64,000 nt of DNA from Malacoraja senta (Eukaryota), in assembly GCA_038087875.1 (NCBI GenBank), contig CM075989.1, positions 22,632,001-22,696,000 on the forward strand, written 5' to 3'. How positions within the stretch are numbered: the first letter of the stretch is position 1; every line of letters starts with the position of its first letter. Made by a program: the position numbers and the translations under genes. This document shows positions 92-63,859 of the stretch, piece after piece. Below the pieces are notes generated by a model. That model saw nothing but the letters and a program-made list of their open reading frames with translations. It was not told where the DNA came from and made no database searches.

Positions 92-324
92 TGAGTTATT
101 GAGTCTGAAGAAGGGTCTCAACTCGAAACGTCATCTATTCCTTCTCTCCAGAGATGCTGCCCGTCCTGCTGAGTTACTCCAGCTTTTGGTGTCCATCTGC
201 GGTTTAAACCAACATCTGCAGTTCCTTCCTACACATTTTGTCTGTTCCACTGCGAAATCTCCTCAAGGTATACATTTAAGATGTTCTCCTCCTCTCCCCA
301 ACAGTCTGAAGAAGGGTCTCGACC
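92..324 (+). mobile_element. PLE-derived terminal-repeat element, tandem two-hammerhead unit (left part; continues at 1884-1964)
   Basis: CTGAAGA at 105 and 306; family body ...GATGCTGCC...CTGAGTTACTCCAGC...GCAGTTCCTTCCTACACA; GTTATTCAGCC repeated at 81-91 and 1965-1975. Confidence 0.75.
105..132 (+). ncRNA. minimal type I hammerhead ribozyme motif, degenerate stem II
   Basis: CTGAAGA-A-GGGTC-TC-AACTC-GAAAC-GTC. Confidence 0.55.
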
Positions 325-1883
325 TGGGCCTGATGGCCTGCATCCCAAGGTACCTAAGGAGGTGGCTCTAAAAATCGTGGACGCATTGGTGATCATTTTC
401 CAATTTTCTATAGATTCAGGATCAGTTTCTGTGGATTGGAGGGTAGTTAATGTTATTCCACTTTTTAAGAAAGGCGGGAGAGAGAAAACAGGGAATTATA
501 GACCAGTTAGCCTGACATCGGTGGTGGGGAAGATGCTGGAGTCAATTATAAAAGATGAAACAGCAGCAAATATGGATAGCAGTAACAGGATCGGTCCGAG
601 TCAGCATGGATTTATGAAGGGGAAATCATGCTTGACTAATCTTCTGGAATTTTTTAAGAAGCTAACTAGAAAGATGGACAAGGGAGAGCCAGTGGATGTA
701 GTGTACCTGGACTTTCAGAAAGCATTTGATAAGGTCCCACATTGGAGATTAGTGGGCAAAATTAGAGCACATGGTATTGGGGGTAGAGTGCTGACATGGA
801 TAGAAAATTGGTTGGCAGACAGGAAACAAAGAGTAGGGATTAACGGGTCCCTTTCAGAATGGCAGGCAGTGACTAGTAGTGTACCGCAAGGCTCGGTGCT
901 GGGACCGCAGCTATTTACAATATACGTTAATGATTTAGATGAAGGAATTAAAATTAGCAAATTTGCAGATGACACAATGCTGGGTGGAAGTGTGAACTGT
1001 GAGGAGGATGCTATGGGGATGCAGGGTGACTTGGACAGGTTGGGGGAGTGGGCAGATGCATGGCAGATGCAGTTTAATGTGGATAAATGTGAGGTTATCC
1101 ACTTTGGTGGCAAGAACAGGAAGGCAGATTATTGTCTGAATGGTGTCAAGTAAGGAAAAGGGGAAGTACAACGAGATCTGAGGGTCCTTGTTCATCAGTC
1201 ACTGAAAGTAAGCATGCAGGTACAGGAGGCAGTGAAGAAAGCGAATGGCATGTTGGCCTTCATAACAAGAGGAGTTGAGTATAGGAGCAAATAGGTCCTT
1301 CTGCAGTTGTACAGGGTCCTGGTGAGACCACACCTGGAGTATTGTATGCAGTTTTGGTCTCCAAATTTGAGGAAGGACATTCTTGCTATTGAAGGAGTGC
1401 AGCGTAGGTTTACAAGGTTAATTCCCCAGATGGCAGGACGGTCATATGTTGAAAGAATGGAGTGACTGGGCTTGTATACACTGGAATTTAGAAGGATGAG
1501 AGGGAATCTTATTGAAACATAAGATTATTAAGGGCTTGGACACGCTAGAGGCAGGAAACATGTTCCCGATGTTGGGGGAATCCAGAACCAGGTGCCACAG
1601 TTTAAGAATAAGGGGGAGGCCATTTAGAACAGAGATGAGAAAAAATGTTTTCACCCAGAGAATTGTGAATCTGTGGAATTCTCTGCCTCAAAAGGCAGTG
1701 GAGGTCAATTCTCTGGATGCTTTCAAGAGAGAGTTAGATAGAGCTCTTAAAGATAGCGGAGTCAAGGGATATGGTAAGAAGGCAGGAACGGGTTACTGAT
1801 TGTAGATGATCAGCCATGATCACAATGAATGGTGGTGCTGGCTCAAAGGGCCGAATGGCCTCCTCCTTTACCTATTGTCTATT
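325..1883 (+). mobile_element. CR1 LINE, 5'-truncated, disrupted ORF2 reverse transcriptase
   Basis: PGPDGLHP, NYRPVSLTS, YLDFQKAFDKVPH, VPQGSVLGP, FADD motifs; stops after 1150; 3' UTR ending CTATTGTCTATT; GACC duplicated at the flanks. Confidence 0.95.
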
Positions 1884-1964
1884 GACCCGAAACGTCATCT
1901 ATTCCTTTTCTTCAGAGATGCTGCCTGACCCGCTGAGTTACTCCAGCATTTTGTGTCCATCTTC
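1884..1964 (+). mobile_element. PLE-derived element, right part of the CR1-interrupted copy
   Basis: resumes GACCCGAAACGTCA exactly where 306-324 stops. Confidence 0.8.
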
Positions 1965-2094
1965 GTTATTCAGCCCGAAAGTCGCAAAGCCTTCTGAAGA
2001 TGGACTTTGGTTGGTCTTGCATCCTCAACACACTCTGCTGCCACACATTCAGGCAGGAAACTCCAGACTGACAGTACTTGCCCGCGTACTGTTT

Positions 2095-2563
2095 CTCTCA
2101 TCCTCCCTTCTTCCAAAAGGCAGCCAGCTTCATCAGAGACCCACACCACCCTGGCCACACACTCATTTCACCCCTACCATCGGGAAGAAGGTACAGGAGC
2201 CTGAAAACTAACAGAAGGTAGACACAAAAAGCTGTAGTAACTCAGCAGGACAGGCAGCATCTCTGGAGAGAAGGAAGGAAAACTAACATTCAGGTTCAGG
2301 AACAGCTTCTTCCCTACAGCCATCAGGCTATTAAACACTACAACCTCCATTAAGCTCTGAACTACATAGACTTGGGGGCATTGGTTTTGTCTTTCTACAT
2401 TATTATCATTTATTTTTTATGGATATATAAACACACTGAACTTTTTTTTCTCGTTTATTATATTATTTACAGTGTACGATGTTCACATATTCCGCTGTGC
2501 CGCTGCAAGTAAGAATTTAATCGTTCTATCTGGGACAGATGACAATAAAACACTCTTGACTCT
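2095..2563 (+). mobile_element. Rex1/Babar LINE 3' fragment, interrupted at 2214-2277
   Basis: encodes KAASFIRDPHHPGHTLISPLPSGRRYRSLKT..RFRNSFFPTAIRLLN; 3' UTR with AATAAA and CTCTTGA tail. Confidence 0.8.
2214..2277 (-). mobile_element. 64-bp PLE terminal-repeat insertion
   Basis: flanked by 11-bp direct repeat GAAAACTAACA (2203-2213, 2278-2288). Confidence 0.8.
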
Positions 2564-2635
2564 TAAATCATTGACAATACATCTGTATAATTTTATCGGG
2601 TGAAATTTGATAATTCAGTAAACAGATATGAGAAT

Positions 2636-2858
2636 GGTAGACAAAATTGCTGGAGAAACTCAGCGGGTGCAGCAGCATCTATGGAGCGAAGGAAATAGGC
2701 AACGTTTCGGGCCGAAACGCTTCTTCAGACTGATGCAGGGTTTCGGCCCGAAACGTTGCCTATTTCCTTCGCTCCATAGATGCTGCTGCACCCGCTGAGT
2801 TTCTCCAGCACTTTTGTCTACCTTTGATTTTCCAGCATCTGCAGATCCTTCTTAAACA
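2636..2858. mobile_element. PLE-derived inverted-repeat element with a hammerhead-like core on each strand
   Basis: ~90-bp inverted arms; minus core 2701-2728, plus core 2730-2757 (CTGATGC variant). Confidence 0.8.
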
Positions 2859-6386: not shown

Positions 6387-6582
6387 TGTTCAAGAAGGAA
6401 TTGCAGATGCTGAAAAATCTAAGGTAGACAAAATTCTTGGAGAAACTCAGCGGGTGCGGCAGATTCTATGGAGCGAAGGAAATAGGCAACGTTTCGGGCC
6501 GAAACCCTTCTTCAGACTGATGCAGGGTGGGGGGGCGGGAAGAAGCTTCCCGCCCCCCCCACCCTGCATCAGTCTGAAGAAG
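6387..6582. mobile_element. PLE-derived element with fold-back end
   Basis: family body on minus strand; inverted repeat GACTGATGCAGGGTGGGG..CCCCACCCTGCATCAGTC. Confidence 0.8.
6488..6515 (-). ncRNA. minimal hammerhead ribozyme motif
   Basis: CTGAAGA-A-GGGTT-TC-GGCCC-GAAAC-GTT. Confidence 0.65.
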
Positions 6583-6751
6583 ACTCTGAACAGTAACAGC
6601 CTATTGCGCTTTATCTGCTTATTTATGTGTATACTGAACTGAACTGTTCTGTATTGTTGCTTACAATATTCTGTTGTGCTGCAGCAAGCAAGAATTTCAT
6701 TGTCCTATCTGGGACACATGACAATAAACTCTCTTGATTTGACTTGACATA

Positions 6752-6891
6752 AAGATAGACACAAAATACTGGAGTAACTCAGCAGGACAGGCAGCATCTC
6801 TGGAGAGAAGGAATGCGTGACGTTTCGGGGCCTGAGGAAGGGTCTCGACCCGAAACGTCCCGCGAGTTACTCCAGCATTTTGTATCTATCT
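6752..6891. mobile_element. PLE-derived inverted element
   Basis: minus arm followed by a plus arm with internal deletion. Confidence 0.75.
6832..6859 (+). ncRNA. minimal hammerhead ribozyme motif
   Basis: CTGAGGA-A-GGGTC-TC-GACCC-GAAAC-GTC. Confidence 0.65.
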
Positions 6892-7215
6892 TGAATGATA
6901 TGTCTCAACTCTGCTTGCCAACCGTTGAATCACATCTCTGTTTTGGTGATTCAACCAAATCTCTGAAGAAGGATCTTCACCCGTAACGTCACATGTCCAC
7001 GATCCCCAGAGATGCTGCTTATAGACTCATAGAGTCATATACAGAGTGGAAACAAGCCAAGTTCATTTCAGTGCAGTCTCTCCGCCTACAGAATGGAGTT
7101 GCTATGTTTTCTTGGAAATTATTTATCGTTAATGTCTTTATTGACCTGCAATAGTTTAAATGTGTTTTTAATTGACTATTTGTGTTTTGTTAATCATGTA
7201 CATCATTGTTAGTAG

Positions 7216-7338
7216 CGTAGGAGGGAACTGCAGGTGCTGGTTGAGTCTGAAGAAGGGTCTCAACCCGAAACGTCACCCATTGCTTCTCTCCAGAGATGCT
7301 GCCTGTCCCGCTGAGTTACTCCACCATTTTGTGTGTAT
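7216..7338 (+). mobile_element. PLE-derived element with hammerhead core at 7247-7274
   Basis: CTGAAGAAGGGTCTCAACCCGAAACGTC plus family body. Confidence 0.75.
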
Positions 7339-13622: not shown

Positions 13623-14176
13623 GAAATTGTCATATTCTCTCCAGAGATGCTGCCTGTCCCGCACAAATGTTGGAGTAACTCAGCGGGACAGGCAGCGTCT
13701 CTGGAGAGAAGGAACGGGTGATTTTTTTTCAGGTCGAGACCCTTCTTCAGACTGAGAGTCAGCGGAGAGGGAGGGGGAGATACAGAGATAAGGAAATGTA
13801 AAATGTGAGAACTCCCTTCCATTTACTCCATCTACACCTCATGCCCTCTCCACTGCTTGTGGCAGAGACTGCTTTAAACCATCTTCAGCAATAAAATGGA
13901 TGTACTGAGGATCGAGAGAAGAATGAAAATATCCTATGGTTAATACGCATTATGCTTTATTTTCTTTGCGATCCTGAAAAGTAACTGCAGTTTGCACCAC
14001 AAAGATCCAACAAGAAATAATTCAAACAGTCGGACAGGAAAGATTCCCTATTTCTTTCCATCAAAGATCAGATATCAGTAACGGATCCAGATACCACTTG
14101 GAATAGAGAATAAAATAATAAAATTGCCAGTGAACTGAAACGGGCACCAAAAATTTAACCAAATAATAGAAATCTA

Positions 14177-14411: not shown

Positions 14412-14560
14412 AAGTGTAAGGAAGGAACTGCAGATGCTGGTTTACGCCAAAGATGGACATAAAATGCTGGAGTAACTCAGCAGATCAGGCAGCATCTCTG
14501 GATAGAAGGAATGGGTGACGTTTCAGGTTGAGACCGTCATCAGAAGGGTCTCGACCCAAA
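14412..14560 (-). mobile_element. PLE-derived element with 13-bp TSD
   Basis: ACTAATTGTACAT at 14399-14411 and 14561-14573. Confidence 0.8.
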
Positions 14561-14635: not shown

Positions 14636-15098
14636 GGCACCACAGTGGTGCAGCGGTAGAGTTGCTGCCTTACAGAGCCGGGTGCTGTCTGTATGAAGCT
14701 TGTACCTTCTCCCTGTGAACTGTTTAAGTAGGAACTGCAGATGCTGGAAAATCGAAGGTAGACAAAAATGCTGGGGAAACTCAGCGGGTGCAGCAGCATC
14801 TATGGAGCGAAGGAAATAGGCAACGTTGCCTATTTCCTTCGCTCCATAGATGCTGCTGCACCCGCTGAATTTCCCCAGAATTTTTGTCTACCTCCCTGTG
14901 AACTGCGTGGGTTTTCTCTGGGAGCTCCGGTTCCCTCCTACACTCTAAAGACGTACAGGTTTGCCGGCTAATTGCCTTTGTAAATAATGTAATTTGTAAA
15001 TTGTCTCTCGTGTGCGTAGGATAGTGTTAGTGTGCGAGGATCATTGGCTGGTGGGCTGAAGGACCTGTTTCCGCGCTGTATCTCTTAACTAAACTAAA
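14636..15098 (+). mobile_element. HE1-type V-SINE interrupted by a PLE element
   Basis: V domain split at CTCCCTGTGAACTG. Confidence 0.8.
14721..14891. mobile_element. palindromic PLE-derived element
   Basis: inverted arms centred on GGCAAC|GTTGCC; TSD CTCCCTGTGAAC(TG). Confidence 0.85.
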
Positions 15099-16161
15099 TT
15101 CAATGTCAATCAATAAATTGCCCAGCTAACTAATAAGGGATGAAATTGTCTTTTGTTTTTATTACATATAATCGTGAGAATATTTGACATAACGTTCTAT
15201 ACTACAAGGGAAAGGGGACATGGTAGAAAATCAAAAATTATCAGATTAAATACATATATTTCGATATACGGTTTGCATTAGAACACACACAGCTATTGTA
15301 TTGAAGATACTTTTGAATAGGCACATGGACATGCAGGGAATGGATGGACATGGATAATATGCAGGCAGATATGAGTAGTTCTTGGCATCAGGTTCAGCAC
15401 AGACTTTATGGGCTGAAGGGCCTGTTCCTGTGCTATAATTCCTGTATATGGTTGAATGAGGCTCTCGTTCTTCTCAACAACAGGGAACAGAGGCCCAGAC
15501 CACATCATCTCTCCACACAAGACACTCTCGTCAACCCCTATCAATCTGGTGAATGTTTACTTCACTTCCTATAGAGTGACTGGGTTGTTTTTTTAGGTGA
15601 GGAGACCAACATTTTACATGGTATTCCAGGTGTGGTCTCAACAGGGCATTGCATAATTGCAGTAAGGCATCTTAAACTCTGGCGCTGAAATTGTCTCCAC
15701 AAGAAAAGCCCGCACACACCCACAGTTCGCTTTCCTAATTGCCTTCAACACCTGCATTTTATTGACCCGTCTTAGAGGATTTGCAAGCTGCATTGAACAT
15801 TAACAAAGACAGACACAAAGTGCTGGAGTAACACAGCGGGTCAGACAGCATCTCTGGAGAAAAAGAATGGGTGATGTTTCAGGATGGGACCCTTATTCAG
15901 TCTGAAAGTAGGGGTTTTGGGGGGGGGGGGGTTGAAGAAATGGGGGAGAGAAAAAAACTGAAACCGATCAAGGCTGGCCACAAATAACCTCAGACAGGAA
16001 ATCTTTCTCAGCCTCCTATCATTTTTTTAAAAACCAGAGTCTATGGTTCAGCTGTTCGTTTTACAGTGGGTAAATATATTTATGTGAAAATCCTTGCGAA
16101 TATGATGTTTTACATCACAGAATACATGGAAAGTAAATACAATGGTAAATTTGTTTTTTAT

Positions 16162-16380
16162 TGTGTAGGAAGGAACTGCAGATGCTGGTTTAGACACAAA
16201 AACTCAGCAGGACAGGCATCATCGCTGGAGATAAGGAATGGGTGACGTCTCAGGTCGAGACCCTTCATCAGACTGAGAGTCAGAGGAGAGGGAGAATAGA
16301 GATATGGAAGGGTGCAAAGAGCATGTCAGGTGTGAAAAGGACAGATAAAAGCAGACAATGCTCAAGGAAATGGAGAATGG
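16162..16380 (-). mobile_element. PLE 3' UTR and terminal repeat
   Basis: family body; degenerate CTGATGA core ~16244-16271. Confidence 0.7.
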
Positions 16381-16860: not shown

Positions 16861-16874
16861 TAATGTAATTGTAA

Positions 16875-17255
16875 GTGCGTAGGAAGGAACTGCAGATGCT
16901 GGTTTACTCCGAAGATAGATACAATTCAGCGGGACAGGCAGCATCTCTGGAGAGAAGGAATGGGTGACATCTCGGATCGAGACCCTTCTTCAGACTGATT
17001 CATCACCCATTCCTTCTCTCCAGAGATGCTGCCTGTCCCGCTGAGTTACTCCAGCTTTTTGTGTCCACCTTCTGTTTAAACCAGCATCTGCAGTTCCTTC
17101 CTCGCACATGGTTCATTGTTGGCTGAGGGGAAGGTGACAACGAGGCGTCCAAACAGTAACATTAATCAGGAGGACAGTGAAACTAGTTTGAGAACTCGGG
17201 TGAGGAAGGGACAGGGAGAGAGAGAGAGAGGGAAGGCAAGGGTTACTTGAAGTTA
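16875..17255. mobile_element. PLE-derived inverted element plus PLE 3' UTR fragment
   Basis: inverted arms 16875-17108; minus-strand AAC TTC AAG TAA (NFK*) near 17243-17254 resembles the PLE ORF end at 31336. Confidence 0.7.
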
Positions 17256-17559: not shown

Positions 17560-17796
17560 TTACAGCGCCAGAGACCCGGGTTCGATCCTGACTACGGGTG
17601 CTGTCTGTACGGAGTTTGTACGTTCTCCCCGTGACCTGCGTGGGTTTTCTCAGGGTGACGTACAGGTTTGTTGGTTAATTGGTTTGGTATTATTGTAAAT
17701 TGTCCCTAGTGTGCGTAGGGTAGCATTAGTACTGGTCAGTGCGGACCCGGTGGGCGAAGGGCCTGTTTCTGCGCTGTATCTCTAAACTAAACTAAA
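17560..17796 (+). mobile_element. HE1-type V-SINE
   Basis: B box, partial V domain, tail. Confidence 0.85.
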
Positions 17797-17926
17797 TCTA
17801 AGATAGACACAAAAAGCTGGAGTAACTCAGTGGGACAGGCAGCATCCTCTCTGGGGAAAAGGAATGGGTGACGTTTCGGGTCAGAGCCTCTTCAGAATCT
17901 AAACTAAATCTACCTCTCTTGGTATC

Positions 17927-19198: not shown

Positions 19199-19226
19199 GA
19201 CGTTTCGGGTCAAGACCCTTCTTCAG
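19199..19226 (-). ncRNA. minimal hammerhead ribozyme motif within PLE element 19132-19228
   Basis: CTGAAGA-A-GGGTC-TT-GACCC-GAAAC-GTC. Confidence 0.65.
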
Positions 19227-36748: not shown

Positions 36749-36776
36749 GACGTTTCGGGTCGAGACCCTTCTTCAG
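36749..36776 (-). ncRNA. minimal hammerhead ribozyme motif within PLE insertion 36701-36781
   Basis: CTGAAGA-A-GGGTC-TC-GACCC-GAAAC-GTC; insertion flanked by AGAGGGGAGGT/AGATGGGAGGT. Confidence 0.7.
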
Positions 36777-48902: not shown

Positions 48903-48930
48903 GACGTTTCGGGTCGGGACCCTTCTTCAG
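48903..48930 (-). ncRNA. minimal hammerhead ribozyme motif within PLE element 48810-48933
   Basis: CTGAAGA-A-GGGTC-CC-GACCC-GAAAC-GTC. Confidence 0.7.
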
Positions 48931-48954
48931 ACTTTAGTCTATCTTAACTTTGTC

Positions 48955-50480: not shown

Positions 50481-52486
50481 AATAGCGTTCAAAAAGGCTC
50501 AAGATATGTCACTAATTATCACTATTGGATTACCACGTTGTGAAGCTGCATGTTTTCAATAACCCATGCTTATATTTTATTCCTTCAAAAAGGCAACATA
50601 TCACGTTTGCTGGCTGGATGTCACTTCCAACTGTTCTGGACAGATAATAACAGACTAACTGTGATCACAGCAACGGGTGACTTGACTGAAAATATCTTGC
50701 ATGATGTTATACTTACGCGCTATACGCAGGGGGATGATGCGATAAGATTTTAGGCCCGTCTGCCAAGCACATGACAAGAGAGCAGTGTTGAACGTTGGTC
50801 TACATGCTAAGTCTGAGGTGTTTGGGCTGCTGGTTGAATCAGTTGTCATTCCTATCCATGGATCAGTATTCCCTGGTTAGTTTGTTAGCTGAGCCCTCTC
50901 ATGCCCGCCGCGTGATGCGGTGCGTTCCCCCCAGTGTTGCCTTCCTTTCTTTGCCATCTGCCGCGTCTCCTGGGCCGCTGCCTGCAGCTACGAAGCCTGT
51001 TTATAATGGACGCCCGTCACCGCAAGCTCATACTCCCCCAACCCATCGTTCCACCAACTGAGACATGCACCATTGATTGTGTGAGCCTCCATCCATGCAT
51101 TCATCGCGTACAGTCAAAACCACTGAAGGAAAAGACAATGTCTTGATAGCTAGCAGCCTTCATCAAACACTGATATTCTTCAAGGTCTGGTTCACAACAC
51201 ATTCCCACCAGTACCTTTAGCCCACTTATTCTCATATAACCGGATGATTGAACTGATTGAAAGATACAACAAACACATTGGTGAGGCCACATTTGGAATA
51301 GTGCAGATAAACACAAAAAGCTGGAGTAACTCAAAGCTGAAGAAGGGCAACATCACCCATTCCTTCTCTCCAGAGATGCTGCCTGTCCCGCTGAGTTACT
51401 CCAGCTTTTTGTGTCTATCTTCGATTTAAACCAGCATCTGCAGTTCTTCCTTACGCAAAAACTCCTCAGTGACTTGGGTTGATTTCAAACCCAAGTCCAG
51501 GGGTGTATATAACCCAGTGGGTCAACTGAACCTTTGGAATATATCAGCTGGCACTCCCAGCTGGGAGAGGGAAGCTCCATGGATGAGAACAAACATCTCC
51601 TTGCCTCTGACACTCAAGCTGAAATGCAGATCAACAGTCGGGCCAAAGGTCCCCTCTTCCTCTGACAGCTGGAAAGGTCTGAAGGAAATGAGTTTGACTT
51701 GTCTCTGCCCAGCTCCTGTTGAATATAAACTACAGCATAGCACCAAACGTAATTTGGCAATTGGCAGTTTCAATCAGAAATGTCACAGGGATAGCTAATG
51801 TGGGAAATTGAAATGTCACGTTGATGCAGTAGGCTGATCTTCGGTGGCTGGGGTTAAGGCATATTTGTCGAGGCAGAGCATCGCAGAACTTTACTCTCAT
51901 GCTGAAGTGTGCTGCACTTTGCTATAAGCACCAGCCTTCACCTTCCAACATCTGAGATTTTAAAATGATTAATATTGATGTTAAATTGACCACTTTATTA
52001 AACATAGGTTACTGAGTGCAGAGCATAACATGGTGTTCTATTAAACCAGACTGACGCCACTATGATTAAAACAACATTTCAACAAAAATGGAATAAATAC
52101 ATTTTTCATACATCCTTAGGATGATATCACTTAGATTGTATTTTATTGGTAATTAGTGGTTAGTTCTTCAGTTGTGCACTGAAAATAAGTGGAAACACAT
52201 TTATCACAAAGCAAATATTCAAATGCTTTCACTCTTTTGGTAAATGGGTACCAGGACTGAAGAAGGGTTTCGGCCCGAAAAGTTGACTATTTCCTTCGCT
52301 CCATAGATGCTGCCTCACCCGCTGAGTTTCTCCAGTATTTTTGTCTACCAGGACTGAAGAGTTGTTTGGAAAATATCTGAGTTCATTCGCTTTCTGAATA
52401 CGCGTTACATCATGGACACAAAGTGCTGGAGTAACTCAGCGGGTCAGGCAGCATCTCAGGAGAAAAAGGACGGTAGTCCTGACACA

Positions 52487-52750
52487 AAACGTCACCTATC
52501 CATGTTCTCCACAGATGCTGCCTGACCCGCTGAGTTACTCCAGCACTCTGTGAAACGTCACCTATCCATGTTCTCCACAGATGCTGCCTGACCCGGTGAG
52601 TTACTCCAGCACTCTGTGAAACGTCACCTATCCATGTTCTCCACAGATGCTGCCTGACCCGGTGAGTTACTCCAGCACTCTGTGAAGCGTCACCTATCCA
52701 TGTTCTCCACACATGCTGCCTGACCTGCTGAGTTACTCCAGCACTTTGTG
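52487..52750 (+). repeat. 4 x 66-bp tandem array derived from the PLE terminal repeat (duplicate at 54096-54359)
   Basis: units start at 52487, 52553, 52619, 52685. Confidence 0.9.
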
Positions 52751-53172
52751 TCCTTTTGTGTAAACGGGCATCTGCAGTTCCTTGCTTCTACATATTACTT
52801 TGTGCTGGTTGATCACAAAGACATTCTCTACCAGTTTCCAATGTTGGATCTTACATAGGATGTAGAAAAGGAGAAAGCCATTTAACCTCCAGTACATTCC
52901 AAAGCTAGAAACGTCCGATGGTTAAGTCAGAAATTAGACTGAGAAAAAGTTAACATTTCTGGTCACTGGCCCTTAATTGGATCTGGGAAAATTTAACGTT
53001 AAATGTGATTTAAGATCACATAGTATCATACAGGTGAGGCAGCATCTGTGGAGGGAAAAGGGCAGATGACTTCTCCAGTTGGGAACCATGGGACAATTGA
53101 AAATACTTACTCTCAGTCTGAATGGACGGAGTGTTGTCAATATATGAAGTTTATCAGGCAAGAGGTTTAGAA

Positions 53173-53610
53173 AGAAAATAGTGTAGTGGTGCCTACTGGT
53201 GCACGCAGGTATCGAACCCGGCGTTCGGAAGCCGCGGGCCACGTGATTCGGGAGGGGCCGCTTGTTTTCGCGCGGTTTCGCTTTCGCGCGTTAGTTCAGC
53301 GCTGACCACCGTTGTGGCCAGACATGTCTAGAGAACCTGTCTACAAGAAACCGAACTTTTGAATAAAGATCTGTTGGAAACTTCAGTGGTCGTTCTTCAG
53401 ACCGCCAAAATAGACACAAAAAGCTGGAGTTACTCAGCGGGTCAAGGCAGCCTCTCTGGAGAGAAGGAATGGGTGAAGTATCGCGTCGAAACATCACAGA
53501 AACGTCACCAATTCCTTCTCTCCAGAGGTGCTGCCCATCCCGCTGAGTTACTCCAGCTTTTTGTGTCTATCTTCGGTTTAAACCAGCATCTGTAGTTCCT
53601 TCCTACACAC
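53173..53610. mobile_element. PLE-derived inverted element with 11-bp TSD, inside a Rex fragment (duplicate at +1609)
   Basis: GAGGTTTAGAA at 53162-53172 and 53611-53621. Confidence 0.8.
53182..53409 (+). mobile_element. probable solo LTR, Gypsy-like
   Basis: starts TGTAGTGGT, ends ACCGCCAAA (imperfect inverse), internal AATAAA, 4-bp TSD ATAG. Confidence 0.65.
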
Positions 53611-54790
53611 GAGGTTTAGAAGTGTGAAAACACACAACATGGTGTTCTATTAAACCAGACTGACGCCACTATGATTAAAACAACATTTCAACAAAAATGG
53701 AATAAATACATTTTTCATACATCCTTAGGATGATATCACTTAGATTGTATTTTATTGGTAATTAGTGGTTAGTTCTTCAGTTGTGCACTGAAAATAAGTG
53801 GAAACACATTTATCACAAAGCAAATATTCAAATGCTTTCACTCTTTTGGTAAATGGGTACCAGGACTGAAGAAGGGTTTCGGCCCGAAAAGTTGACTATT
53901 TCCTTCGCTCCATAGATGCTGCCTCACCCGCTGAGTTTCTCCAGTATTTTTGTCTACCAGGACTGAAGAGTTGTTTGGAAAATATCTGAGTTCATTCGCT
54001 TTCTGAATACGCGTTACATCATGGACACAAAGTGCTGGAGTAACTCAGCGGGTCAGGCAGCATCTCAGGAGAAAAAGGACGGTAGTCCTGACACAAAACG
54101 TCACCTATCCATGTTCTCCACAGATGCTGCCTGACCCGCTGAGTTACTCCAGCACTCTGTGAAACGTCACCTATCCATGTTCTCCACAGATGCTGCCTGA
54201 CCCGGTGAGTTACTCCAGCACTCTGTGAAACGTCACCTATCCATGTTCTCCACAGATGCTGCCTGACCCGGTGAGTTACTCCAGCACTCTGTGAAGCGTC
54301 ACCTATCCATGTTCTCCACACATGCTGCCTGACCTGCTGAGTTACTCCAGCACTTTGTGTCCTTTTGTGTAAACGGGCATCTGCAGTTCCTTGCTTCTAC
54401 ATATTACTTTGTGCTGGTTGATCACAAAGACATTCTCTACCAGTTTCCAATGTTGGATCTTACATAGGATGTAGAAAAGGAGAAAGCCATTTAACCTCCA
54501 GTACATTCCAAAGCTAGAAACGTCCGATGGTTAAGTCAGAAATTAGACTGAGAAAAAGTTAACATTTCTGGTCACTGGCCCTTAATTGGATCTGGGAAAA
54601 TTTAACGTTAAATGTGATTTAAGATCACATAGTATCATACAGGTGAGGCAGCATCTGTGGAGGGAAAAGGGCAGATGACTTCTCCAGTTGGGAACCATGG
54701 GACAATTGAAAATACTTACTCTCAGTCTGAATGGACGGAGTGTTGTCAATATATGAAGTTTATCAGGCAAGAGGTTTAGAAAGAAAATAG

Positions 54791-55018
54791 TGTAGTGGTG
54801 CCTACTGGTGCACGCAGGTATCGAACCCGGCGTTCGGAAGCCGCGGGCCACGTGATTCGGGAGGGGCCGCTTGTTTTCGCGCGGTTTCGCTTTCGCGCGT
54901 TAGTTCAGCGCTGACCACCGTTGTGGCCAGACATGTCTAGAGAACCTGTCTACAAGAAACCGAACTTTTGAATAAAGATCTGTTGGAAACTTCAGTGGTC
55001 GTTCTTCAGACCGCCAAA
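54791..55018 (+). mobile_element. probable solo LTR, duplicated copy
   Basis: identical to 53182-53409. Confidence 0.65.
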
Positions 55019-56654
55019 ATAGACACAAAAAGCTGGAGTTACTCAGCGGGTCAAGGCAGCCTCTCTGGAGAGAAGGAATGGGTGAAGTATCGCGTCGAAA
55101 CATCACAGAAACGTCACCAATTCCTTCTCTCCAGAGGTGCTGCCCATCCCGCTGAGTTACTCCAGCTTTTTGTGTCTATCTTCGGTTTAAACCAGCATCT
55201 GTAGTTCCTTCCTACACACGAGGTTTAGAAGTGTGAAAACACACAACTCCAGATTTAGGGACAATTTCTTCGCAGCTGTTATCAGGCAAATGAACCATCC
55301 TATCACCAACTAGAGAACTACTATATTTACTGGACTTGATCTGGCAGTAAACGTATCGGTTTCAGTTCAGTGTAGTTTATTGTCACCTGTACCGGGGTAC
55401 AGTGAAAAGCTTTTGTTGCGTGCTAACCAGTCAGCGGAAAGACAATACATGATTACAATCGAGCCATTGGCAATGTACGGATACATGATAAGGGAATAAC
55501 GTTTAGTGCAAGGTAAAGCCAGTTAATGCAAGGTATTCCCTTTATCCTGTAACTTTACACTGTGGACGGCTTGATTGTAATCATGTATAATCTTTTCACT
55601 GAGTGGATGGTACGCAAAAAAAACGCGTTTGTAGGATACTGCTAGTATATCGGGTGATCGCTGGTCGGTGGGCCGAAGGGCCTGTTTCCACGCAGCATTG
55701 CTAAATGTTTCACTGAAGCTCGTTACACGTGACAATAAACTAAACTATCAAACCATCAGCTGAATCCAAATGATCTACGTTTTATATACACATTTTACTT
55801 ATGTAAAGGCATGTGAAAGACTGACAAACTTTCATTCCGATGCCTTTGAAACATCAATAGCAGTTTTGGGAGTGGGGTGGCACTTGCGTGTGGGACTCAG
55901 GTTTCCGTTCCTGTGGCTCTCGATTAGTGCGAGAGAGAGACCAAGAGGGTCGCAGGGAAATGCCACAAAAGATGCTGTCAATCCACGGCCCCGATATAAT
56001 TTGCAGAGATGAATGAAGTGTTTTTTAGACTGCCATCGCTCCTGTTCAAATGCATTTGCATCTCTCACAGCCTCTGCCACTTGTATCTGACACCAGCTCT
56101 TCAGGGTAACGTTATGGGGATGATCTCGCTGCTAATCACCTATCACATGTGATGGATTTCTGCAGACTCAGTCCTGACTTGTTAAATTTGGAGCCAAGGC
56201 CTGTGGCTTCATTCCTGCCAGTTATTTATCAAAGATGACAGCTCACAAATATCTCAATCTGGGAGAAGGCACCACGGTGACACCAAGGCTCGGCGTGAAA
56301 TTGCAAGAGTCAGCAGTCAGCATTCATTTCATCAGCGTTGATCCAATCATCAGAGCTCCTTTGACAGTTGGGATTGTGGCTGCTTCTTGGATGACTATCC
56401 AGTGGTCACTTTAATCTATTCTGTGCAGTTCCACGTGAAGCACTGATAGGAAAATGCAAAGGAAAGACCGCCAATGTTTTGTGTGTCTCCAGACTTCTTA
56501 CTAACTTTGTCATTCATCTGGTTCTCAGGATAACACTTGACACCTGAGTGCAATGTTTTAACTCGTTGTTTGAAGCAAGCAAAGGGCCAGGGAACACTGT
56601 TTCAAATGTTTTGTTGCACGTCACTTTACCGTGCTTGGTGGTCGACTTTTTGTT

Positions 56655-59050: not shown

Positions 59051-59334
59051 GGGCGGTACGGTGGCACTTGCAGCACTGGAGACCCGGGTTCGATCCTGAC
59101 TACGAATATTATCTGTACGGAGTTTGTACCTTCGCCTGCGTGGGTTTTCTCCGAGATCTCCGGTTTCCTCCCACACTCCAAAGACGTACAGGTTGGTAAC
59201 TTAATTGGCTTGCTATAAATGTAAGTTGTCCCTAGTGTGTATAGGATCGTGTTAGTGTGCGGGGATCGGTGGTTGGCGTGGGCTCGGTGGGCCGAAGGAA
59301 CTGTTTCCTCTCTGTATCTCTAAACTAAACTAAA
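59051..59334 (+). mobile_element. HE1-type V-SINE
   Basis: B box, V domain, tail. Confidence 0.85.
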
Positions 59335-59382
59335 CACTTTTCCCAATAAAGAAGGAAAAGATAATTTGTACCTTGGTTATAA

Positions 59383-60496
59383 TGTTGGACATGGGCATTC
59401 ACCTAACCATGTGCCATTGGATTTTACATTTTCTGACAAACAGACAACAAAGAATCAAGGTGGGTGAAAAACTCTCCAGCCCTCTGACTATCAATACAGG
59501 AGCCCCTCAAGGGTGCGTTCTGTCACCTCAGCTCTTCTCACTTTACACCAACAACCTCACATCCCAATGCAGCTCAGTTAAAATTTTCAAATATGCAGAC
59601 GACACGACAATAATTGGCCTCATCTCAGACAACAATGAATCACAATACCATCAAACAGTGGACAGCGCAGTCAAATGGTGCGCAGAAAACAACCTCCAGC
59701 TTAACACCTCAAAAACCTTAGAAACCATCATAGATTTCAGACGCAAACAAAACCTCAAACCCCCGGTCCATGTCAACTCCCATCCCATAACCTCCACGAA
59801 CTTATTTAAGTTTCTGGGCACCTATATCTGCAATAATCTAAAATGGCACATCAATGCTGACCACATCATTAAGAAAGGACAACAACGCCTATACTTCCTC
59901 AGACAGCTCAAGAAGTTCAGAGTCCACAAACACCTCCTGGTACGCTTCTATCAATCCATCATTGAAAGCATCATCACTTCCTCAATCACAGTCTGGTACG
60001 GAAACACTGACAGTCACTCACTACACAGAATACAGCGCATTGTCTCCAAGGCCTCTAGGATCATCAACTCTCCCCTCCCCTCAATCCATTCCATTTACCT
60101 CCAACGTACCTCAAAACGGGCAACAAAGATCATCTCGGACCCCTCCCATCCAGCAAACCACATTTTCCAGTCTCTCCCTTCAGGGAGGCGCCTTAGGTCA
60201 CTTGCTACAAAATCCACCCGTTTTAAAAACAGTTTCTTCCCCTCAGCAATAAGAACACTTAATTCCCTCCAATAACTTTTTGACTTTGATGTATACAGTG
60301 TCTTGTCTATGGTTTTTGTCTGTTCTTTTGCACTATGTATTGTTGGTGAGATTTGTGATTTGTGATGTGCTTTATTATTATGATCTGTGTTGTTATTAGT
60401 GTTAATGTGCTAAAGCAGTGTACCATCATGTACCGAACCCAATTACCACCAACCCTGGTCGTGTGGCAAATAAAGTTTCTATTCTATTCTATTCTA
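59383..60496 (+). mobile_element. Rex1/Babar LINE, 5'-truncated, reading frame open to 60275
   Basis: WILHFLTNRQQ, TGAPQGCVLSP, YADDTT, KKGQQRLYFLRQLKK, LPSGRR; AATAAA and (TTCTA)n tail. Confidence 0.92.
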
Positions 60497-60530: not shown

Positions 60531-60684
60531 GAAAGAACTGCAGATGCTGGTTTAAATCAAAGGTAGACACAAAATGCTGGAGTAACTCAGCGGGTGAGGC
60601 AGCATCTCTGTTTTAAATCAAAGGTCTACCTTCAGCCAGAGATGCTGCCTCACCCGCTGAGTTACTCCAGCATTTTGTGTCTAT
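60531..60684. mobile_element. PLE-derived inverted element with 13-bp TSD, no hammerhead core
   Basis: CGGCAATGTTCAA at 60518-60530 and 60685-60697. Confidence 0.85.
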
Positions 60685-60916
60685 CGGCAATGTTCAATGT
60701 CTCTTCACCTTGGACAATAAACAACAAGATTATGATATGGACCAAGTAGCATAATGTCACCCATGGCTAAGCATCTAAAATAACGTCTCCTGCTCTTAAG
60801 TCTGCATCAAATGATAAATGATGGCATTGAGGTACAGTGTCAAGTCGTACTTTGAAAATTAGATTAATAGACAAAAGTTGGAAAAGTCCAAAGATAGAGA
60901 ACACATATTTACTCTT

Positions 60917-61057
60917 GTGTAGGAAGGAACTGCAGATGCTGGTTTAAACCAAAGATAGACACAAAAAGCTGGAGTAACTCAGCGGGACAGGCAGCATCTC
61001 TGGAGAGAAGGAATGGGTGACGTTTCGGGACGAGACCCTTCTTCAAACTTCAGACAG
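60917..61057 (-). mobile_element. PLE-derived element with 14-bp TSD
   Basis: ACATATTTACTCTT at 60903-60916 and 61058-61071. Confidence 0.85.
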
Positions 61058-61767
61058 ACATATTTACTCTTCCCTTGTCGCTTGCCTCAATGCTGAGAAC
61101 TATATTATTTCTCCCTGTATCGTTCCCTTTGCTCTGTATAGAGTCATAGAGTCAAACAGCGTGGAAACAGGCCCATCGGCCCAACTTGCCCACACTGACC
61201 AACATGTCCAATCTGCACCAGTCCCACCTGCCTACGTTTGGCCCAAATCCCTCTAAACCTGTCCTATCCATGTACCTGTCTAAATATTTCTTAAACCTTG
61301 TGATAAGTTGGCCCAGGATGTAGGGAGTGGATAAGATAACATAGAACTAGAGTGAATGGTGGTCAATAGGTGGCGTGGACTCAGTGGGCCGAGAGCCTGT
61401 TAATATTGCTGTATCTTTCAATCAATTTAATTCATAAAAGGGATATTCCAAACAAGGGAAACAAACTAGAACGTGATTTCCTGACAAGTCAAGTCACAAT
61501 GGAATTTAATAAATTATTAACCATTTCGAAATCCATATGCATAGCTTCAAAATGTCAAGTACATGCATATACCTGCACCGACCCCAAGTTCAAAGTAACA
61601 ACAGAAAACTATGCCCTAGAAAATTGCACCAGGTGTAATGAGGCCGGTTAAAGTCTGTAACTGGGCTGATGTTGTGTGGGTTCATGCTGTGGCTTTTATC
61701 TGGATAAGCAAAGTATTATTTAATACACAAATAACTAAGATAAACACTGTGAGGAGTGTCTATAAAT

Positions 61768-62067
61768 GGCGGAGTGGTGACACAGCGGTAGAGTTGCTGC
61801 CTTATGGCGCCACAGACCCAGCTTCGGTCCTGTCTACGGGTGCTTGTCCATACAGAGTTTGCACATTCTCCCCGTGACCTGAGTGGGTTTCCTCTGGGTG
61901 CTCCGGTTTCCTCCCACACTCCAAAGGCTTGTAGGTTTGTAAGTTAAATAGCTTTGGTAAATATTGTAAAATTGTCCCGAGTGTGGAGGATAGTGCTAGT
62001 GTATGGGGTGATCACCGGTCGGCGCTGACTCGGTGGGATGTAGGGCCTGTTTCCGTGCTGTATCTCT
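61768..62067 (+). mobile_element. HE1-type V-SINE
   Basis: consensus match. Confidence 0.8.
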
Positions 62068-62422
62068 GAGGTCCAAATGTTGACACTATCTGCAGGCGAT
62101 AGGTACAAAGACCTGCTGAGGTGCTTGTACAGTTTAGGACTGTGGCCAGTGTGTGGTAATGGCGAGGTTGAGAGGGAGCCAGTTGGACAGTTTCCCAGAA
62201 TATGCTACAGTTCTCAAGCAACAAATGTCCCAAGGTGTCATTCCTGGGCAATCATTCCTGTCCTAAAATCTAAATTCAATTTGTTCAGGCGTCATGTAAT
62301 CTGGAAGAGTGCGAGTGTGTGAGTGTAATAGGCTGTGTTTTCCCTCTTCTGGGAAGCTGGGACTCAAACATAAATGGTTGTGAATAATCTACATGGTACA
62401 GTTTTGAACAGATAATCGACTT

Positions 62423-62838
62423 GAGCGACTGAGCTTGTATCCACTGGAATTTAGAAGGATGAGAAGGGATCATTGAAACATATAAGATTGTTAAGGGTTT
62501 GGACACGCTAGAGGCAGGAAGCATGTTCCCAATGTTGGGGGAGTTCAGAACCAGGGGCCACAGTTTAAGAATAAGGGATAACCCATTTAGAACGGAGATG
62601 AGGAAAAACGTTTTCACCCAAAGAGTTGTAAATCTGTGGAATTCTCTGCCTCAGAAAGCAGTGGAGGCCAATTCTCTGGATGCTTTCAAGAGATAGTTAG
62701 ATAGAGTTCTTAAAGATAGCGGAGTCAAGGGATATGGGGAGAAGGCAGGAACAGGGTACTGATTGTGGATGATCAGCCATGATCACAGTGAATGGCGGTG
62801 CTGACTCAAAGGGCCGAATGGCCTACTCCTGCACCTAT
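62423..62838 (+). mobile_element. CR1 3' fragment
   Basis: homologous to 1460-1875. Confidence 0.9.
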
Positions 62839-63033
62839 ATATTCTTCTTGCAGAGACTGAGCCCTGGATTGGGCCTGTTGCAGGTGGGAAGGTGCGAGGG
62901 TCTCTTGGACCCTCTGTTGCAGGGAGAGAGAAACAAATACGCTGACATAATAACCACAACCATCTTGGTTAAAAAAGACCCAACACAAAATGCAATGTGT
63001 CGGAAGTAACCGCCTAATGTGTAAGAAGGAACT

Positions 63034-63322
63034 AGCGGTAGAGTTGCTGCCTCACAACTCCGGGGTCCCGGGTTTGATCCCGGCTACGGGCGTTGTGTGT
63101 ACGGAGTTTGTACGTTCTCCCCATGGCCTGCGTGGGTTTTCTCCGAGATCTGCTGTTTCTTCCCACACTCCAAAGACGTAAAGGTTTGCCGGCTAATTGG
63201 CTTGGTATAAATGTAAATTGTCCCTAGTGTGTGTAGGATAGTGTTAATGTGCGGGGATCGCTGGTCGGCGTGGACTCGGTGCGCCTGTTTCCGCGCTGTG
63301 TCTCTAAAACTAAAACTAAATA
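63034..63322 (+). mobile_element. HE1-type V-SINE
   Basis: V domain and tail. Confidence 0.85.
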
Positions 63323-63859
63323 CTAAAACTCGGCAGGTCAGGCGGCATCTTTGGAGAGAAGGAATGGGCCTGAAGAAGGGTCTTGCCCCAAAACGTCACC
63401 CATTCCTTCTCTTTGCCTGTCCTGATGAGTGACTCCAGCATTTTGTGTCTACAAAATGGCAGCAGCATAACCGTGAGGTTTAACTCTTTGGAATCAACGA
63501 CACTTTATTGCCCAGTCCCTGTTGTTAAACACAGGCACTTGTGCCAAAATATACATCTGTATATGATTTAAGAAACACCCGGATTTATTTTTTGAGGATG
63601 TAAATTGAATGTTATTCTTTGAAGGGAGCGCAGGGACAGAAAATCCCCGAGGTTTATGTTCACGAATGGATGAAGGTAGTATGAGACTTTTAATAAAAAA
63701 TATATTAACAATCTCACACAATCTTAGGCCCAGAGAGAAAGACGGAACACTACAAAGACCGTCACAACAAGCAGCAATATCATGGGAACTGTTCTTGGGA
63801 TTAACCAAGACTCCATGTGCTTCTAACTGCAGTCTTCTACACAGAGAAGTAGTGGAATG

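What the first reader, a model, noticed from the sequence alone, without database searches (positions are those of the whole stretch)
92..63452. Hyper-abundant, non-coding, hammerhead-ribozyme-bearing mini-elements derived from a Penelope-like element
Seen: roughly 40-45 copies (about one per 1.5 kb) of a ~130-nt repeat whose 5' end reads CTGAnGA-A-[GGGTC-NN-GACCC or GGGTT-TC-GGCCC]-GAAAC-GTH. Intact cores occur at 6488-6515(-), 6832-6859(+), 19199-19226(-), 36749-36776(-) and 48903-48930(-). Variation among these falls at the free n position, in the stem II loop, or as G-U-compatible stem changes. Established: CUGAnGA, GAAA and NUH form the hammerhead catalytic core; PLE pseudo-LTRs carry minimal type I hammerheads whose tiny palindromic helix III (here ACGT/AACGTT) is thought to act as a dimer. 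Inference: the ribozyme-bearing end has been amplified to SINE-like density without its ORF, so any transcript crossing the locus carries many potential self-cleavage sites on both strands. Caveats: helix I is only ~2 bp by eye, and PLE hammerheads themselves are known. The scale and the non-autonomous forms are what may be undescribed.
Basis: partly seen in the sequence, partly recalled or inferred. Interest (0 to 1): 0.82.

Follow-up and report, generated by a model that had tools for sequence, protein, structure and literature searches.

The report
Truncated Penelope retroelement ends with hammerheads
The short repeat that peppers this window is the cut-down tail end of a very abundant Penelope-like jumping gene and carries the small hammerhead ribozyme motif already described for such elements in 2014, so the catch is right but the kind is known, and whether these copies cut RNA was not tested.

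Summary
The repeat is real and was under-counted. A profile finds 74 pieces in 64 kb (10.7% of the window). Seven still have an intact CTGAnGA / 4-bp stem II / GAAAC-GTH motif.

It is the 3' terminus of an old, very abundant Penelope-like element (PLE). In 10 of 11 copies of a GIY-YIG endonuclease reading frame taken from the genome, the repeat starts 105-127 nt downstream of the frame's end, on the same strand.

The copies show the published PLE insertion hallmarks:
- extreme 5' truncation;
- two alternative 3' ends about 37-40 nt apart (the "tail");
- head-to-head inverted twins (38, against 3 tail-to-tail);
- no poly(A), and their own 8-14-bp target-site duplications.

The motif matches the minimal PLE hammerhead of Cervera and de la Pena (2014). 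That paper already reports solo and opposite-strand copies spread through animal genomes. Only the scale is larger here: roughly a million relics and about 10^5 strict core motifs, extrapolated from 200 kb.

Evidence that the motif is active is weak:
- no Rfam hammerhead match;
- helix I of 2 bp;
- no compensatory changes;
- no pile-up of copy starts at the predicted cut site.

One feature is unexplained: copy starts pile up exactly at the 5' edge of the hammerhead.

The parts
36749..36776 (-). Letter-perfect minimal hammerhead motif (CTGAAGA-A-GGGTCTCGACCC-GAAAC-GTC) in a solo copy (36698-36776) that lacks the last part of the unit
   Evidence: No Rfam hammerhead hit even when only these 111 nt are searched.
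6832..6859 (+). Intact motif with G at the free position. It is the right arm of a head-to-head pair (6740-6896).
6488..6515 (-). Intact motif of the second subfamily (GGGTTTCGGCCC, cleavage triplet GTT)
19199..19226 (-). Intact motif with a loop variant, in a short-form solo copy (19134-19227)
48903..48930 (-). Intact motif with a loop variant, in a long-form solo copy (48792-48933)
   Evidence: The RNA fold of the copy is no better than shuffles, z -0.16.
7247..7274 (+).
102..302 (+). Copy with an intact motif (105-132). It starts at the hammerhead edge and reads about 65 nt past the usual 3' end into the PLE leader. A 24-nt restart of the repeat (303-326) and a LINE RT fragment follow.
   Evidence: blastn to L096 391-581. 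RVT_1 in 173-1150.
60908..61049 (-). Long-form solo copy (with tail), flanked by a direct repeat: a 14-nt exact match AAGAGTAAATATGT by the automated search, with 8 extra nt at the 5' junction
17787..17896 (-). Short-form solo copy (no tail), flanked by a 14-bp target-site duplication TAGATTTAGTTTAG
14419..14544 (-). Copy with a short inverted piece at its 5' end. The whole composite is flanked by a 13-bp duplication ATGTACAATTAGT.
16868..17109 (.). Head-to-head inverted pair: outer ends are element 3' ends, and the inner junction is at variable 5' positions. One of 17 such pairs in the window.
   Evidence: As RNA it folds into a near-perfect hairpin, -167.6 kcal/mol, z -22.
16156..16334 (-). 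Longer 5'-truncated copy that extends 59 nt upstream of the hammerhead into the PLE 3' untranslated region
52473..52791 (+). Internal 68-nt tandem duplication of unit positions 23-90, repeated again in the segmental duplicate at 54082-54400

Best explanation
The repeat is the 3' terminal 100-140 nt of an old, extremely abundant Penelope-like retroelement, and its copies are most likely dead-on-arrival products of that element's target-primed reverse transcription.

**Shown**
- The full unit is about 3.6 kb, in this order:
  1. hammerhead motif;
  2. two 3'-end sites about 100 and about 138 nt downstream of the motif's start;
  3. a leader of about 960 nt;
  4. the RT/GIY-YIG reading frame;
  5. 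about 110 nt of untranslated sequence;
  6. the hammerhead motif again.
- Copies share the 3' ends and differ at the 5' end.
- About 40% of pieces are head-to-head inverted twins.
- Solo copies have their own target-site duplications.

**Inferred**
- Reverse transcription starts at the two internal sites, as shown in vitro for the Anolis element PAc. That would give copies with and without the 30-40-nt 'tail'.
- Reverse transcription usually stops within the first 140 nt.
- Priming on both cut DNA strands would give the inverted twins.
- The hammerhead rides along as a passenger motif of the minimal, dimer- or protein-dependent PLE type. In these copies it is predicted to be mostly inert.
For: **Link to the PLE**
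- A GIY-YIG search of the genome led to a 203-aa frame ending in a PLE-type endonuclease. The repeat lies 107 nt downstream of it.
- A search with that frame gave 107,298 first-look candidates; the 150 scored were all at E<1e-77.
- In the 10 loci returned, 10 of 11 endonuclease copies have the repeat starting 105-127 nt downstream on the same strand. The exception is L022.
- The RT part maps by tblastn to residues 184-758 of a second PLE's 759-aa frame.
- In 12 of 20 loci around the RT, the repeat is the last shared sequence.
- In tandem context (L096, L094) the repeat runs straight on into the leader and the ORF.

**Insertion hallmarks**, as listed in PMC8557442 (passages read)
- 3' ends are bimodal, at unit positions 96-104 and 133-142. 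In the random sample, 20 and 28 of 105 pieces end in these two ranges.
- Close pairs: 22 head-to-head, 1 tail-to-tail and 4 tandem in 200 kb of random genome; 16, 2 and 7 in the window.
- L042 and L050 carry inverted 3' pieces of about 770 and 244 nt against their 5' ends.
- Exact flanking repeats of 8 nt or more occur in 12 of 33 solo copies, against 2.7% of mismatched flank pairs.

**Motif hallmarks**, from PMC4209133
- An extra nucleotide between A9 and G10.1.
- A G10.1-C11.1 pair.
- A palindromic ACGU in place of helix III.
- H17 is C or U.

**Scale**
- 105 pieces in 200 kb of randomly drawn genome, 0.53 per kb or 6.4% of bases.
- 18 strict cores in the same sample.
Against: **On ribozyme activity**
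- No Rfam hammerhead family matches at gathering score, at E<=10 over the window, or at E<=10 on 111 nt holding a perfect core.
- Helix I is only 2 bp even in the full PLE context.
- Among 107 copies there is no double-sided compensatory change in stem II, only wobble-compatible ones.
- Core positions are no better kept than other non-CpG positions.
- The hammerhead-like dimer conformation scores -12.7 kcal/mol, against -41.7 for the best dimer fold.
- Copy starts at the predicted cut site (positions 31-36) are 2 of 105 and 3 of 71.

**On simple truncation**
- 40 of 105 random-sample pieces and 27 of 71 window pieces start within 10 nt of the hammerhead's 5' edge. Flanks upstream of that edge are unrelated.
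- Random fall-off of the reverse transcriptase does not predict this.

**Limits**
- The random sample came almost wholly from one contig (19 of 20 regions from C1).
Confidence: 0.85

Rival explanations
1. The mini copies are a true non-autonomous, SINE-like lineage. A short RNA would start at the hammerhead's 5' edge and be copied in trans by the PLE reverse transcriptase. It could come from master mini copies, or from every PLE messenger if the promoter's start site lies there. In the second case each messenger would spawn 'cap to first internal initiation site' leader cDNAs.
For: - Copy starts pile up within 10 nt of the edge: 40 of 105 and 27 of 71 pieces.
- Upstream flanks of 33 solo copies are unrelated: 1 of 528 pairs match, and that pair is the segmental duplicate.
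- Solo copies have their own target-site duplications.
- In PLE context the edge reads CATC|AGTC behind a CCCGCCCCC run. From recall, this looks like an initiator (TCAGTY) with a GC box.
- In Drosophila Penelope and in Chlamys-3_cRei, the transcription start lies in the pseudo-LTR (PMC8557442, passages read).
- Reverse transcription starts internally in PAc (PMC11167929, main text read).
Against: - Of about 7 independent copies that read through the 3' end into the leader, only one (window 102-302) starts at the edge.
- Variant frequencies in mini and long copies look the same, so there is no mini-only subfamily. Only about 9 long copies were informative.
- No RNA data were available.
- The promoter reading rests on motif resemblance alone.
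Confidence: 0.3
2. The hammerhead likeness is a coincidence. The conserved terminal sequence would serve only as the recognition and initiation region of the PLE reverse transcriptase, and would never act as a ribozyme.
For: - No Rfam hammerhead match.
- A 2-bp helix I.
- No compensatory change in 107 copies.
- A competing hairpin between GAAGAAGGGU and ACCCAUUCCUUC is the best monomer fold, at -19.3 kcal/mol.
- The whole terminal 140 nt is conserved, not just the core.
Against: - Four features not needed for a chance CTGAnGA...GAAA match coincide with the published PLE min-hammerhead consensus: the extra base after A9, the G10.1-C11.1 pair, the palindromic ACGU, and H17 = C or U.
- The motif sits where PLE hammerheads sit, near the 3' end in the pseudo-LTR (PMC4209133, PMC8557442).
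- The two subfamily changes in stem II keep pairing only on this strand.
- The Anolis PLE hammerhead cleaved only with its protein present (PMC11167929).
Confidence: 0.15
3. The repeat is a foldback MITE (a DNA transposon with ~135-bp inverted ends), or a tRNA-derived SINE read on the opposite strand. On that strand an A-box-like TAACTCAGCGG and a B-box-like GGGTCGAGACC lie 41 nt apart.
For: - 34 of 74 pieces in the window form inverted pairs.
- The box resemblance was seen by eye, judged from recalled consensus sequences.
Against: - The inner junctions of the pairs vary (unit positions 1 to 48) while the outer ends are fixed.
- Solo halves have their own duplications of varying length, 8-14 bp.
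- Longer copies extend upstream into a GIY-YIG reading frame on the hammerhead strand.
- On the opposite strand the fixed end would be a 5' end and the twins would be tail-to-tail with varying 3' ends. Target-primed reverse transcription does not produce that.
- ARAGORN finds no tRNA-like gene in the window.
Confidence: 0.02

Closest known systems
Minimal hammerheads (min-HHR) in the pseudo-LTRs of metazoan Penelope-like elements (Cervera and de la Pena 2014, PMC4209133; abstract, results, discussion and methods read)
   Same: - CUGAnGA and GAAA boxes.
- An unpaired base between A9 and G10.1.
- A G10.1-C11.1 pair.
- No loop 3, with a palindromic 15.2-16.2.
- Location in the PLE terminal repeat.
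- Most motifs are solo, in truncated elements, and some are close pairs on opposite strands.
- Several sequence families per genome.
   Different: - Stem II is 4-5 bp here, against 6-8 bp reported.
- Helix I is 2 bp, against 4-5 bp reported. Only the Drosophila virilis variant has 2 bp.
- Numbers are larger. About 10^5 strict cores are extrapolated here, against about 9,000 in Xenopus tropicalis and about 4,000 in the coelacanth. The extrapolation rests on 8-18 counts in 200 kb.
- No covariation was seen here, whereas the paper reports families full of it.
PAc, the Poseidon-type PLE of Anolis carolinensis (Frangieh et al. 2024, PMC11167929; main text read)
   Same: - A hammerhead near the junction of pseudo-LTR and ORF.
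- Two adjacent internal starts of reverse transcription a little over 100 nt downstream of the hammerhead, which explain an optional 30-40-nt tail.
- Both DNA strands are cut and extended.
- Hammerhead cleavage is not needed for insertion, and no RNA ends were found at the cut site.
   Different: - In PAc the ORF begins inside the hammerhead. Here the ORF starts about 1.1 kb downstream of it, after a long leader.
- The two 3' ends here are inferred from genomic copies, not measured.
Non-LTR retrozymes of animals (Cervera and de la Pena 2020, PMC7229834, listing and abstract only; Li, Clavereau and Pollet 2026 preprint, abstract and results read)
   Same: Non-coding repeats with type I hammerheads, related to PLE pseudo-LTRs and present where PLEs are present.
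   Different: - Retrozymes are head-to-tail tandem arrays thought to cycle through circular RNA.
- Here same-strand tandems are rare (4 in 200 kb, against 22 head-to-head pairs).
- Copy ends lie at the PLE 3' ends, not at the cleavage site.
Non-autonomous PLE derivatives such as MRC1 of Chlamydomonas (Craig et al. 2021, PMC8557442; passages read)
   Same: Short elements sharing only the 3' end with an autonomous PLE family.
   Different: - Those make pseudo-LTRs and head-to-tail multicopy insertions, and they lack canonical hammerheads.
- A self-propagating master was not shown here.

Membership tests
Penelope-like element (terminal fragment) | [quoted passage not shown] | tested here: met
   - The repeat starts 105-127 nt after the endonuclease frame in 10 of 11 copies.
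- Pfam GIY-YIG E=4.5e-7, above the cut-off.
- The RT part aligns to a second PLE's 759-aa frame.
Penelope-like element (terminal fragment) | High degree of 5' truncation with shared 3' ends | tested here: met
   5' ends are spread from -405 to +100 relative to the hammerhead start, while 3' ends cluster at about 100 and about 138.
Penelope-like element (terminal fragment) | Optional 30-40-bp tail at the end of the insertion | tested here: met
   - The two 3'-end clusters lie about 37-40 nt apart.
- Both forms occur with target-site duplications: 17787-17896 is short, 60908-61049 is long.
Penelope-like element (terminal fragment) | An inverted 5'-truncated copy abutting the 5' end | tested here: met
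   - 38 head-to-head against 3 tail-to-tail close pairs in the window plus the random sample.
- The same arrangement is seen at kb scale in L042 and L050.
Penelope-like element (terminal fragment) | Partial tandems forming pseudo-LTRs | tested here: met
   In L096 and L094 the repeat's 3' end continues directly into the next unit's leader and ORF. This was seen in 2 of about 8 loci that reach the unit's 5' part.
PLE minimal hammerhead (min-HHR) | Core boxes CUGAnGA and GAAA with cleavage triplet NUH | tested here: met
   - Present in the majority sequence.
- Intact in 38 of 107 copies that cover the region.
PLE minimal hammerhead (min-HHR) | An unpaired nucleotide between A9 and G10.1, and a G10.1-C11.1 pair | tested here: met
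   - The extra base is A in 138 of 145 copies.
- The first stem II pair is G-C in 74 and G-T in 20 of 107 copies.
PLE minimal hammerhead (min-HHR) | No loop 3, with palindromic 15.2-16.2 so that two copies can form helix III | tested here: met
   GAAA-CG-UC, so ACGU (or AACGUU in the second subfamily) is self-complementary.
PLE minimal hammerhead (min-HHR) | Helix I of 4-5 bp (2 bp in the D. virilis variant) | tested here: inconclusive
   Only U-A and G-C next to the core, both in solo copies and in full PLE context. This fits the D. virilis variant but not the common form.
PLE minimal hammerhead (min-HHR) | Covariation in the stems among families of one genome | tested here: not met
   No double-sided change in stem II among 107 copies. 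Only U-A to U-G and C-G to U-G changes between the two subfamilies.
PLE minimal hammerhead (min-HHR) | Self-cleavage after H17 | not testable with these tools
   - No RNA run with raw reads was on offer.
- Genomic copy starts show no excess at the site.
Rfam hammerhead families (type I, II, III, HH9, HH10) | Score at or above the family's gathering threshold | tested here: not met
   No hammerhead hit at gathering score, none at E<=10 over 64 kb, and none at E<=10 on 111 nt with a perfect core.
Non-LTR retrozyme | Head-to-tail tandem repeats, each with a hammerhead | tested here: not met
   - Same-strand close pairs: 4 in 200 kb and 7 in the window.
- In the window these include runs of an internal 68-nt duplication that does not hold a whole motif.
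tRNA-derived SINE (opposite strand) | tRNA-like fold, with a fixed 3' end on that strand | tested here: not met
   ARAGORN finds none. The orientation of truncation and of the PLE frame contradicts it.

The most novel reading that the evidence does not exclude
The million-copy swarm is not random truncation. It is a distinct product class: every PLE messenger starts at the 5' edge of the hammerhead, and the reverse transcriptase starts at internal sites 100-140 nt downstream. Each messenger therefore spawns short 'cap-to-first-initiation-site' leader cDNAs, often as inverted twins. Internal initiation, a mechanism known so far only from one in vitro study, would then by itself fill about 6% of a vertebrate-sized genome with SINE-like, hairpin-forming, hammerhead-tagged inserts.
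Probability: 0.25. Interest if true: 0.55.

Novelty: new member of a known kind. Interest (0 to 1): 0.3.

Why it matters
- It shows what a very common repeat of this genome is, and in which orientation it was made.
- It gives genomic support, from hundreds of copies, for two features so far measured in vitro only for the Anolis PLE:
  - two internal starts of reverse transcription;
  - extension of both cut strands.
- It suggests that hammerhead-cleaved RNA is not the usual template.
- The head-to-head twins are perfect long hairpins at a density of about one per 9 kb in the random sample. They are a plausible source of double-stranded RNA and of spurious microRNA-like predictions.
- None of this changes what is known about hammerheads.

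Tried and rejected
**Searches that gave nothing or were corrected**
- One search used a spacer one base too long and found only a chance hit. It was corrected.
- Rfam gave no hammerhead hit at three settings. The weak microRNA-family hits are the inverted twins.
- Notes of this scan on this genome: none. Look-alikes by sequence: none.

**Second PLE family**
- A second, young PLE family (759-aa frame, tandem arrays) was tested as the parent. It has no match to the repeat.
- A CTGACGA...GAAAC string upstream of its frame does not continue as a min-hammerhead.

**ORF start inside the hammerhead (as in PAc)**
- One frame of the repeat is open for about 45 codons.
- In tandem context the RT frame starts about 1.1 kb further on, and the stretch between shows no continuous frame in four decayed copies. 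The idea was dropped.

**Transcription-start idea, tested through copies that read into the leader**
- 30 loci were fetched, but most are one insertion multiplied by segmental duplication.
- About 6 were independent, and none of them starts at the edge.

**RNA evidence**
- No RNA holder is listed.
- The four runs laid are contigs, so they cannot show RNA ends. They are:
  - three guessed 'RNA?', one of which is flagged as probably DNA;
  - one DNA run.
- Their contigs cover only the repeat parts of the stretch.

**Other tests**
- Conservation of core positions against the rest is uninformative in neutrally decaying copies.
- The MITE and opposite-strand SINE readings were rejected (see rivals).
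- Literature searches for this repeat or for PLE abundance in cartilaginous fishes found nothing specific. I did not establish the organism.

Full report
**The observation**

- CTGANGA-N13-GAAAC occurs 13 times, against 0.04 expected.
- The 27-mer core with up to three mismatches occurs 26 times, against none expected.

A profile built from eight window copies finds 74 pieces. They cover 6,835 nt, or 10.7% of the window. Nine lie in the second copy of a 1.6-kb segmental duplication.

Two more pass the same test, giving seven in all.

On the hammerhead strand the unit reads AGT-CTGAAGA-A-GGGTCTCGACCC-GAAAC-GTC-ACCCATTCC... It ends either about 100 or about 138 nt from its start.

**What it belongs to**

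A search of the window's genome (1.94 Gb, 6,182 contigs) for GIY-YIG domains turned up a 203-aa open frame. It ends in a PLE-type endonuclease, and a full copy of the repeat lies 107 nt downstream of it on the same strand. Pfam confirms the domain.

A search with that frame gave 107,298 first-look candidates. The 150 that were scored were all at E<1e-77 and 69-80% identity. In the ten loci returned, 10 of 11 endonuclease copies are followed by the repeat at 105-127 nt. L022 is the exception.

The upstream part aligns to residues 184-758 of the 759-aa frame of a second PLE family of the same genome. In 12 of 20 loci fetched around that RT part, the repeat is the last sequence the copies share.

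Walking further upstream shows the whole unit. In L096 and L094 the repeat's 3' end runs straight on into a leader of about 960 nt. An ATG and the RT/endonuclease frame follow. This is the partial-tandem, pseudo-LTR arrangement. The unit is about 3.6 kb. Unlike the Anolis element PAc, the frame does not begin inside the hammerhead.

**How the copies were made**

Craig et al. (PMC8557442, passages read) list the structural hallmarks of PLE insertions:
- strong 5' truncation;
- partial tandems;
- an inverted 5'-truncated copy against the 5' end;
- an optional 30-40-bp tail;
- a hammerhead near the 3' end.

All are seen here.
- *3' ends.* In 200 kb drawn at random (19 regions from contig C1, one from C6), the 3' ends of 105 pieces cluster at unit positions 96-104 (20 pieces) and 133-142 (28 pieces). 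The window shows the same pattern.
- *Close pairs.* The random sample has 22 head-to-head, 1 tail-to-tail and 4 same-strand pairs. The window has 16, 2 and 7. The outer ends of the twins are element 3' ends, and the inner junctions vary from position 1 to 48.
- *Twins at kb scale.* L042 and L050 show the same arrangement.
- *Independent insertions.* Of 33 solo copies, 12 are flanked by exact direct repeats of 8-14 nt, against 2.7% of mismatched flank pairs. They are therefore separate insertions, not deletion remnants.
- *No poly(A).*

Frangieh et al. (PMC11167929, main text read) showed in vitro that the Anolis PLE starts reverse transcription at two adjacent internal sites a little over 100 nt beyond its hammerhead. 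This explains the tail. They also showed that it cuts and extends both DNA strands. The genomic pattern here is what those two properties would produce. That step is inference.

**The hammerhead**

Against the published minimal PLE hammerhead (PMC4209133), the motif has:
- both core boxes;
- the unpaired base between A9 and G10.1;
- the G10.1-C11.1 pair;
- a palindromic ACGU in place of helix III;
- C or U at position 17.

It also sits where PLE hammerheads sit.

Several things speak against a working ribozyme in these copies.
- No Rfam hammerhead model matches, even on 111 nt around a perfect core.
- Helix I is two base pairs, both in solo copies and in full PLE context.
- In 107 copies there is no double-sided compensatory change. 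The only changes are the wobble-compatible ones between two subfamilies.
- Core positions are kept no better than other non-CpG positions.
- A competing hairpin is the best monomer fold. The hammerhead-like dimer scores -12.7 kcal/mol, against -41.7 for the best dimer fold.
- Only 38 of 107 copies keep the boxes, and 28 also keep stem II.
- Copy starts at the predicted cut site number 2 of 105 and 3 of 71. Cleaved RNA was therefore not the usual template, as in PAc.

The 2014 paper found no detectable cleavage by single motifs and weak cleavage by dimers. The 2024 paper found cleavage only with the protein present.

**What remains unexplained**

Copy starts pile up at the hammerhead's 5' edge. 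Within ten nucleotides of it lie the starts of 40 of 105 random-sample pieces and 27 of 71 window pieces. The flanks upstream of that edge are unrelated to each other.

In PLE context the edge reads CATC|AGTC behind a CCCGCCCCC run. From recall, this resembles an initiator with a GC box. In two studied PLEs the transcription start lies in the pseudo-LTR (PMC8557442).

If messengers start there, internal initiation would turn each into a source of 100-140-nt leader cDNAs. I could not confirm this.
- Of about seven independent copies that read on into the leader, one starts at the edge.
- No RNA data with read ends were available.

**Scale and novelty**

The random sample gives 0.53 pieces per kb and 6.4% of bases. 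If representative, that is about a million pieces. It also gives 18 strict cores, 11 with GTH and 8 with stem II as well, or very roughly 10^5 per genome.

An exact 40-mer of the motif region occurs at least 3,931 times. A reversed control occurs 0 times. One strand's count stands at a round 2,000, which may be a cap. The 40-mer was composed from several copies and is not itself in the window.

Contigs of runs from several other coded organisms hold only the repeat parts of a 2-kb stretch, so the family is shared among related species.

Cervera and de la Pena already reported:
- a massive and widespread occurrence of these motifs;
- mostly solo motifs in truncated elements;
- some close pairs on opposite strands;
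- about 9,000 in Xenopus tropicalis and about 4,000 in the coelacanth.

A 2026 preprint ties tandem hammerhead repeats to PLE pseudo-LTRs. Earlier notes of this scan on other genomes reach the same reading. They are unchecked and are not independent evidence.

**Verdict**

This is a correct catch of a known kind, at a larger scale than the published counts. One open mechanistic detail remains: the pile-up of copy starts at the hammerhead's 5' edge.

Noticed in passing
L013-L015 (G000:C5485:1-10000, C1804:1-10000, C14:18391000-18400000); many more places: - A second Penelope-like family with an uninterrupted 759-aa frame (RVT_1 plus GIY-YIG).
- It stands in long head-to-tail arrays with periods of about 1.56, 5.3 and 7.5 kb, for example C14 18.24-18.41 Mb.
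- Copies are near-identical, so it looks very young.
- It has no match to the repeat studied here, and I found no clear min-hammerhead in it.
   Followed up: partly
window 52200-53620 and 53810-55230: A segmental duplication of about 1.6 kb. Its repeat pieces have identical scores, and they include an inverted pair and a 68-nt internal tandem run.
   Followed up: no
window 2661-2798, 6502-6586, 13633-13712, 14751-14942, 51305-51420, 60573-60674: - The inverted twins give weak, below-threshold matches to assorted microRNA families in Rfam.
- The twin at 16868-17109 folds to -167.6 kcal/mol, z -22.
- They may be mistaken for microRNA genes, and they could feed small-RNA pathways.
   Followed up: partly
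window 173-1150 (+) and 59334-60272 (+): LINE-type reverse transcriptase fragments: RVT_1 at E=7.8e-32, and RVT_1 with ALKBH8_N. No host-gene domain turned up in any of the 40 open frames of 110 aa or more that were scanned. The second copy of a duplicated frame was left out.
   Followed up: no
window 61137-61340 and 61740-62074: Two other repeat families that contigs of the other coded organisms also hold at very high depth. Not identified.
   Followed up: no
L105, L108-L132 (unplaced contigs): One PLE insertion that starts at unit position ~108 recurs with the same flank on more than 25 small contigs. It looks like a segmental or satellite-like amplification of a single locus.
   Followed up: no
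window 17792-17896 and L034 269-379: Two short-form copies sit in the same place of another repeat (flanks ...GTTTAGTTTAG and TTTAGAGATACAGCG...). This could be a preferred target or a composite repeat.
   Followed up: no
window 17927-18126: An assembly gap of 200 N.
   Followed up: no
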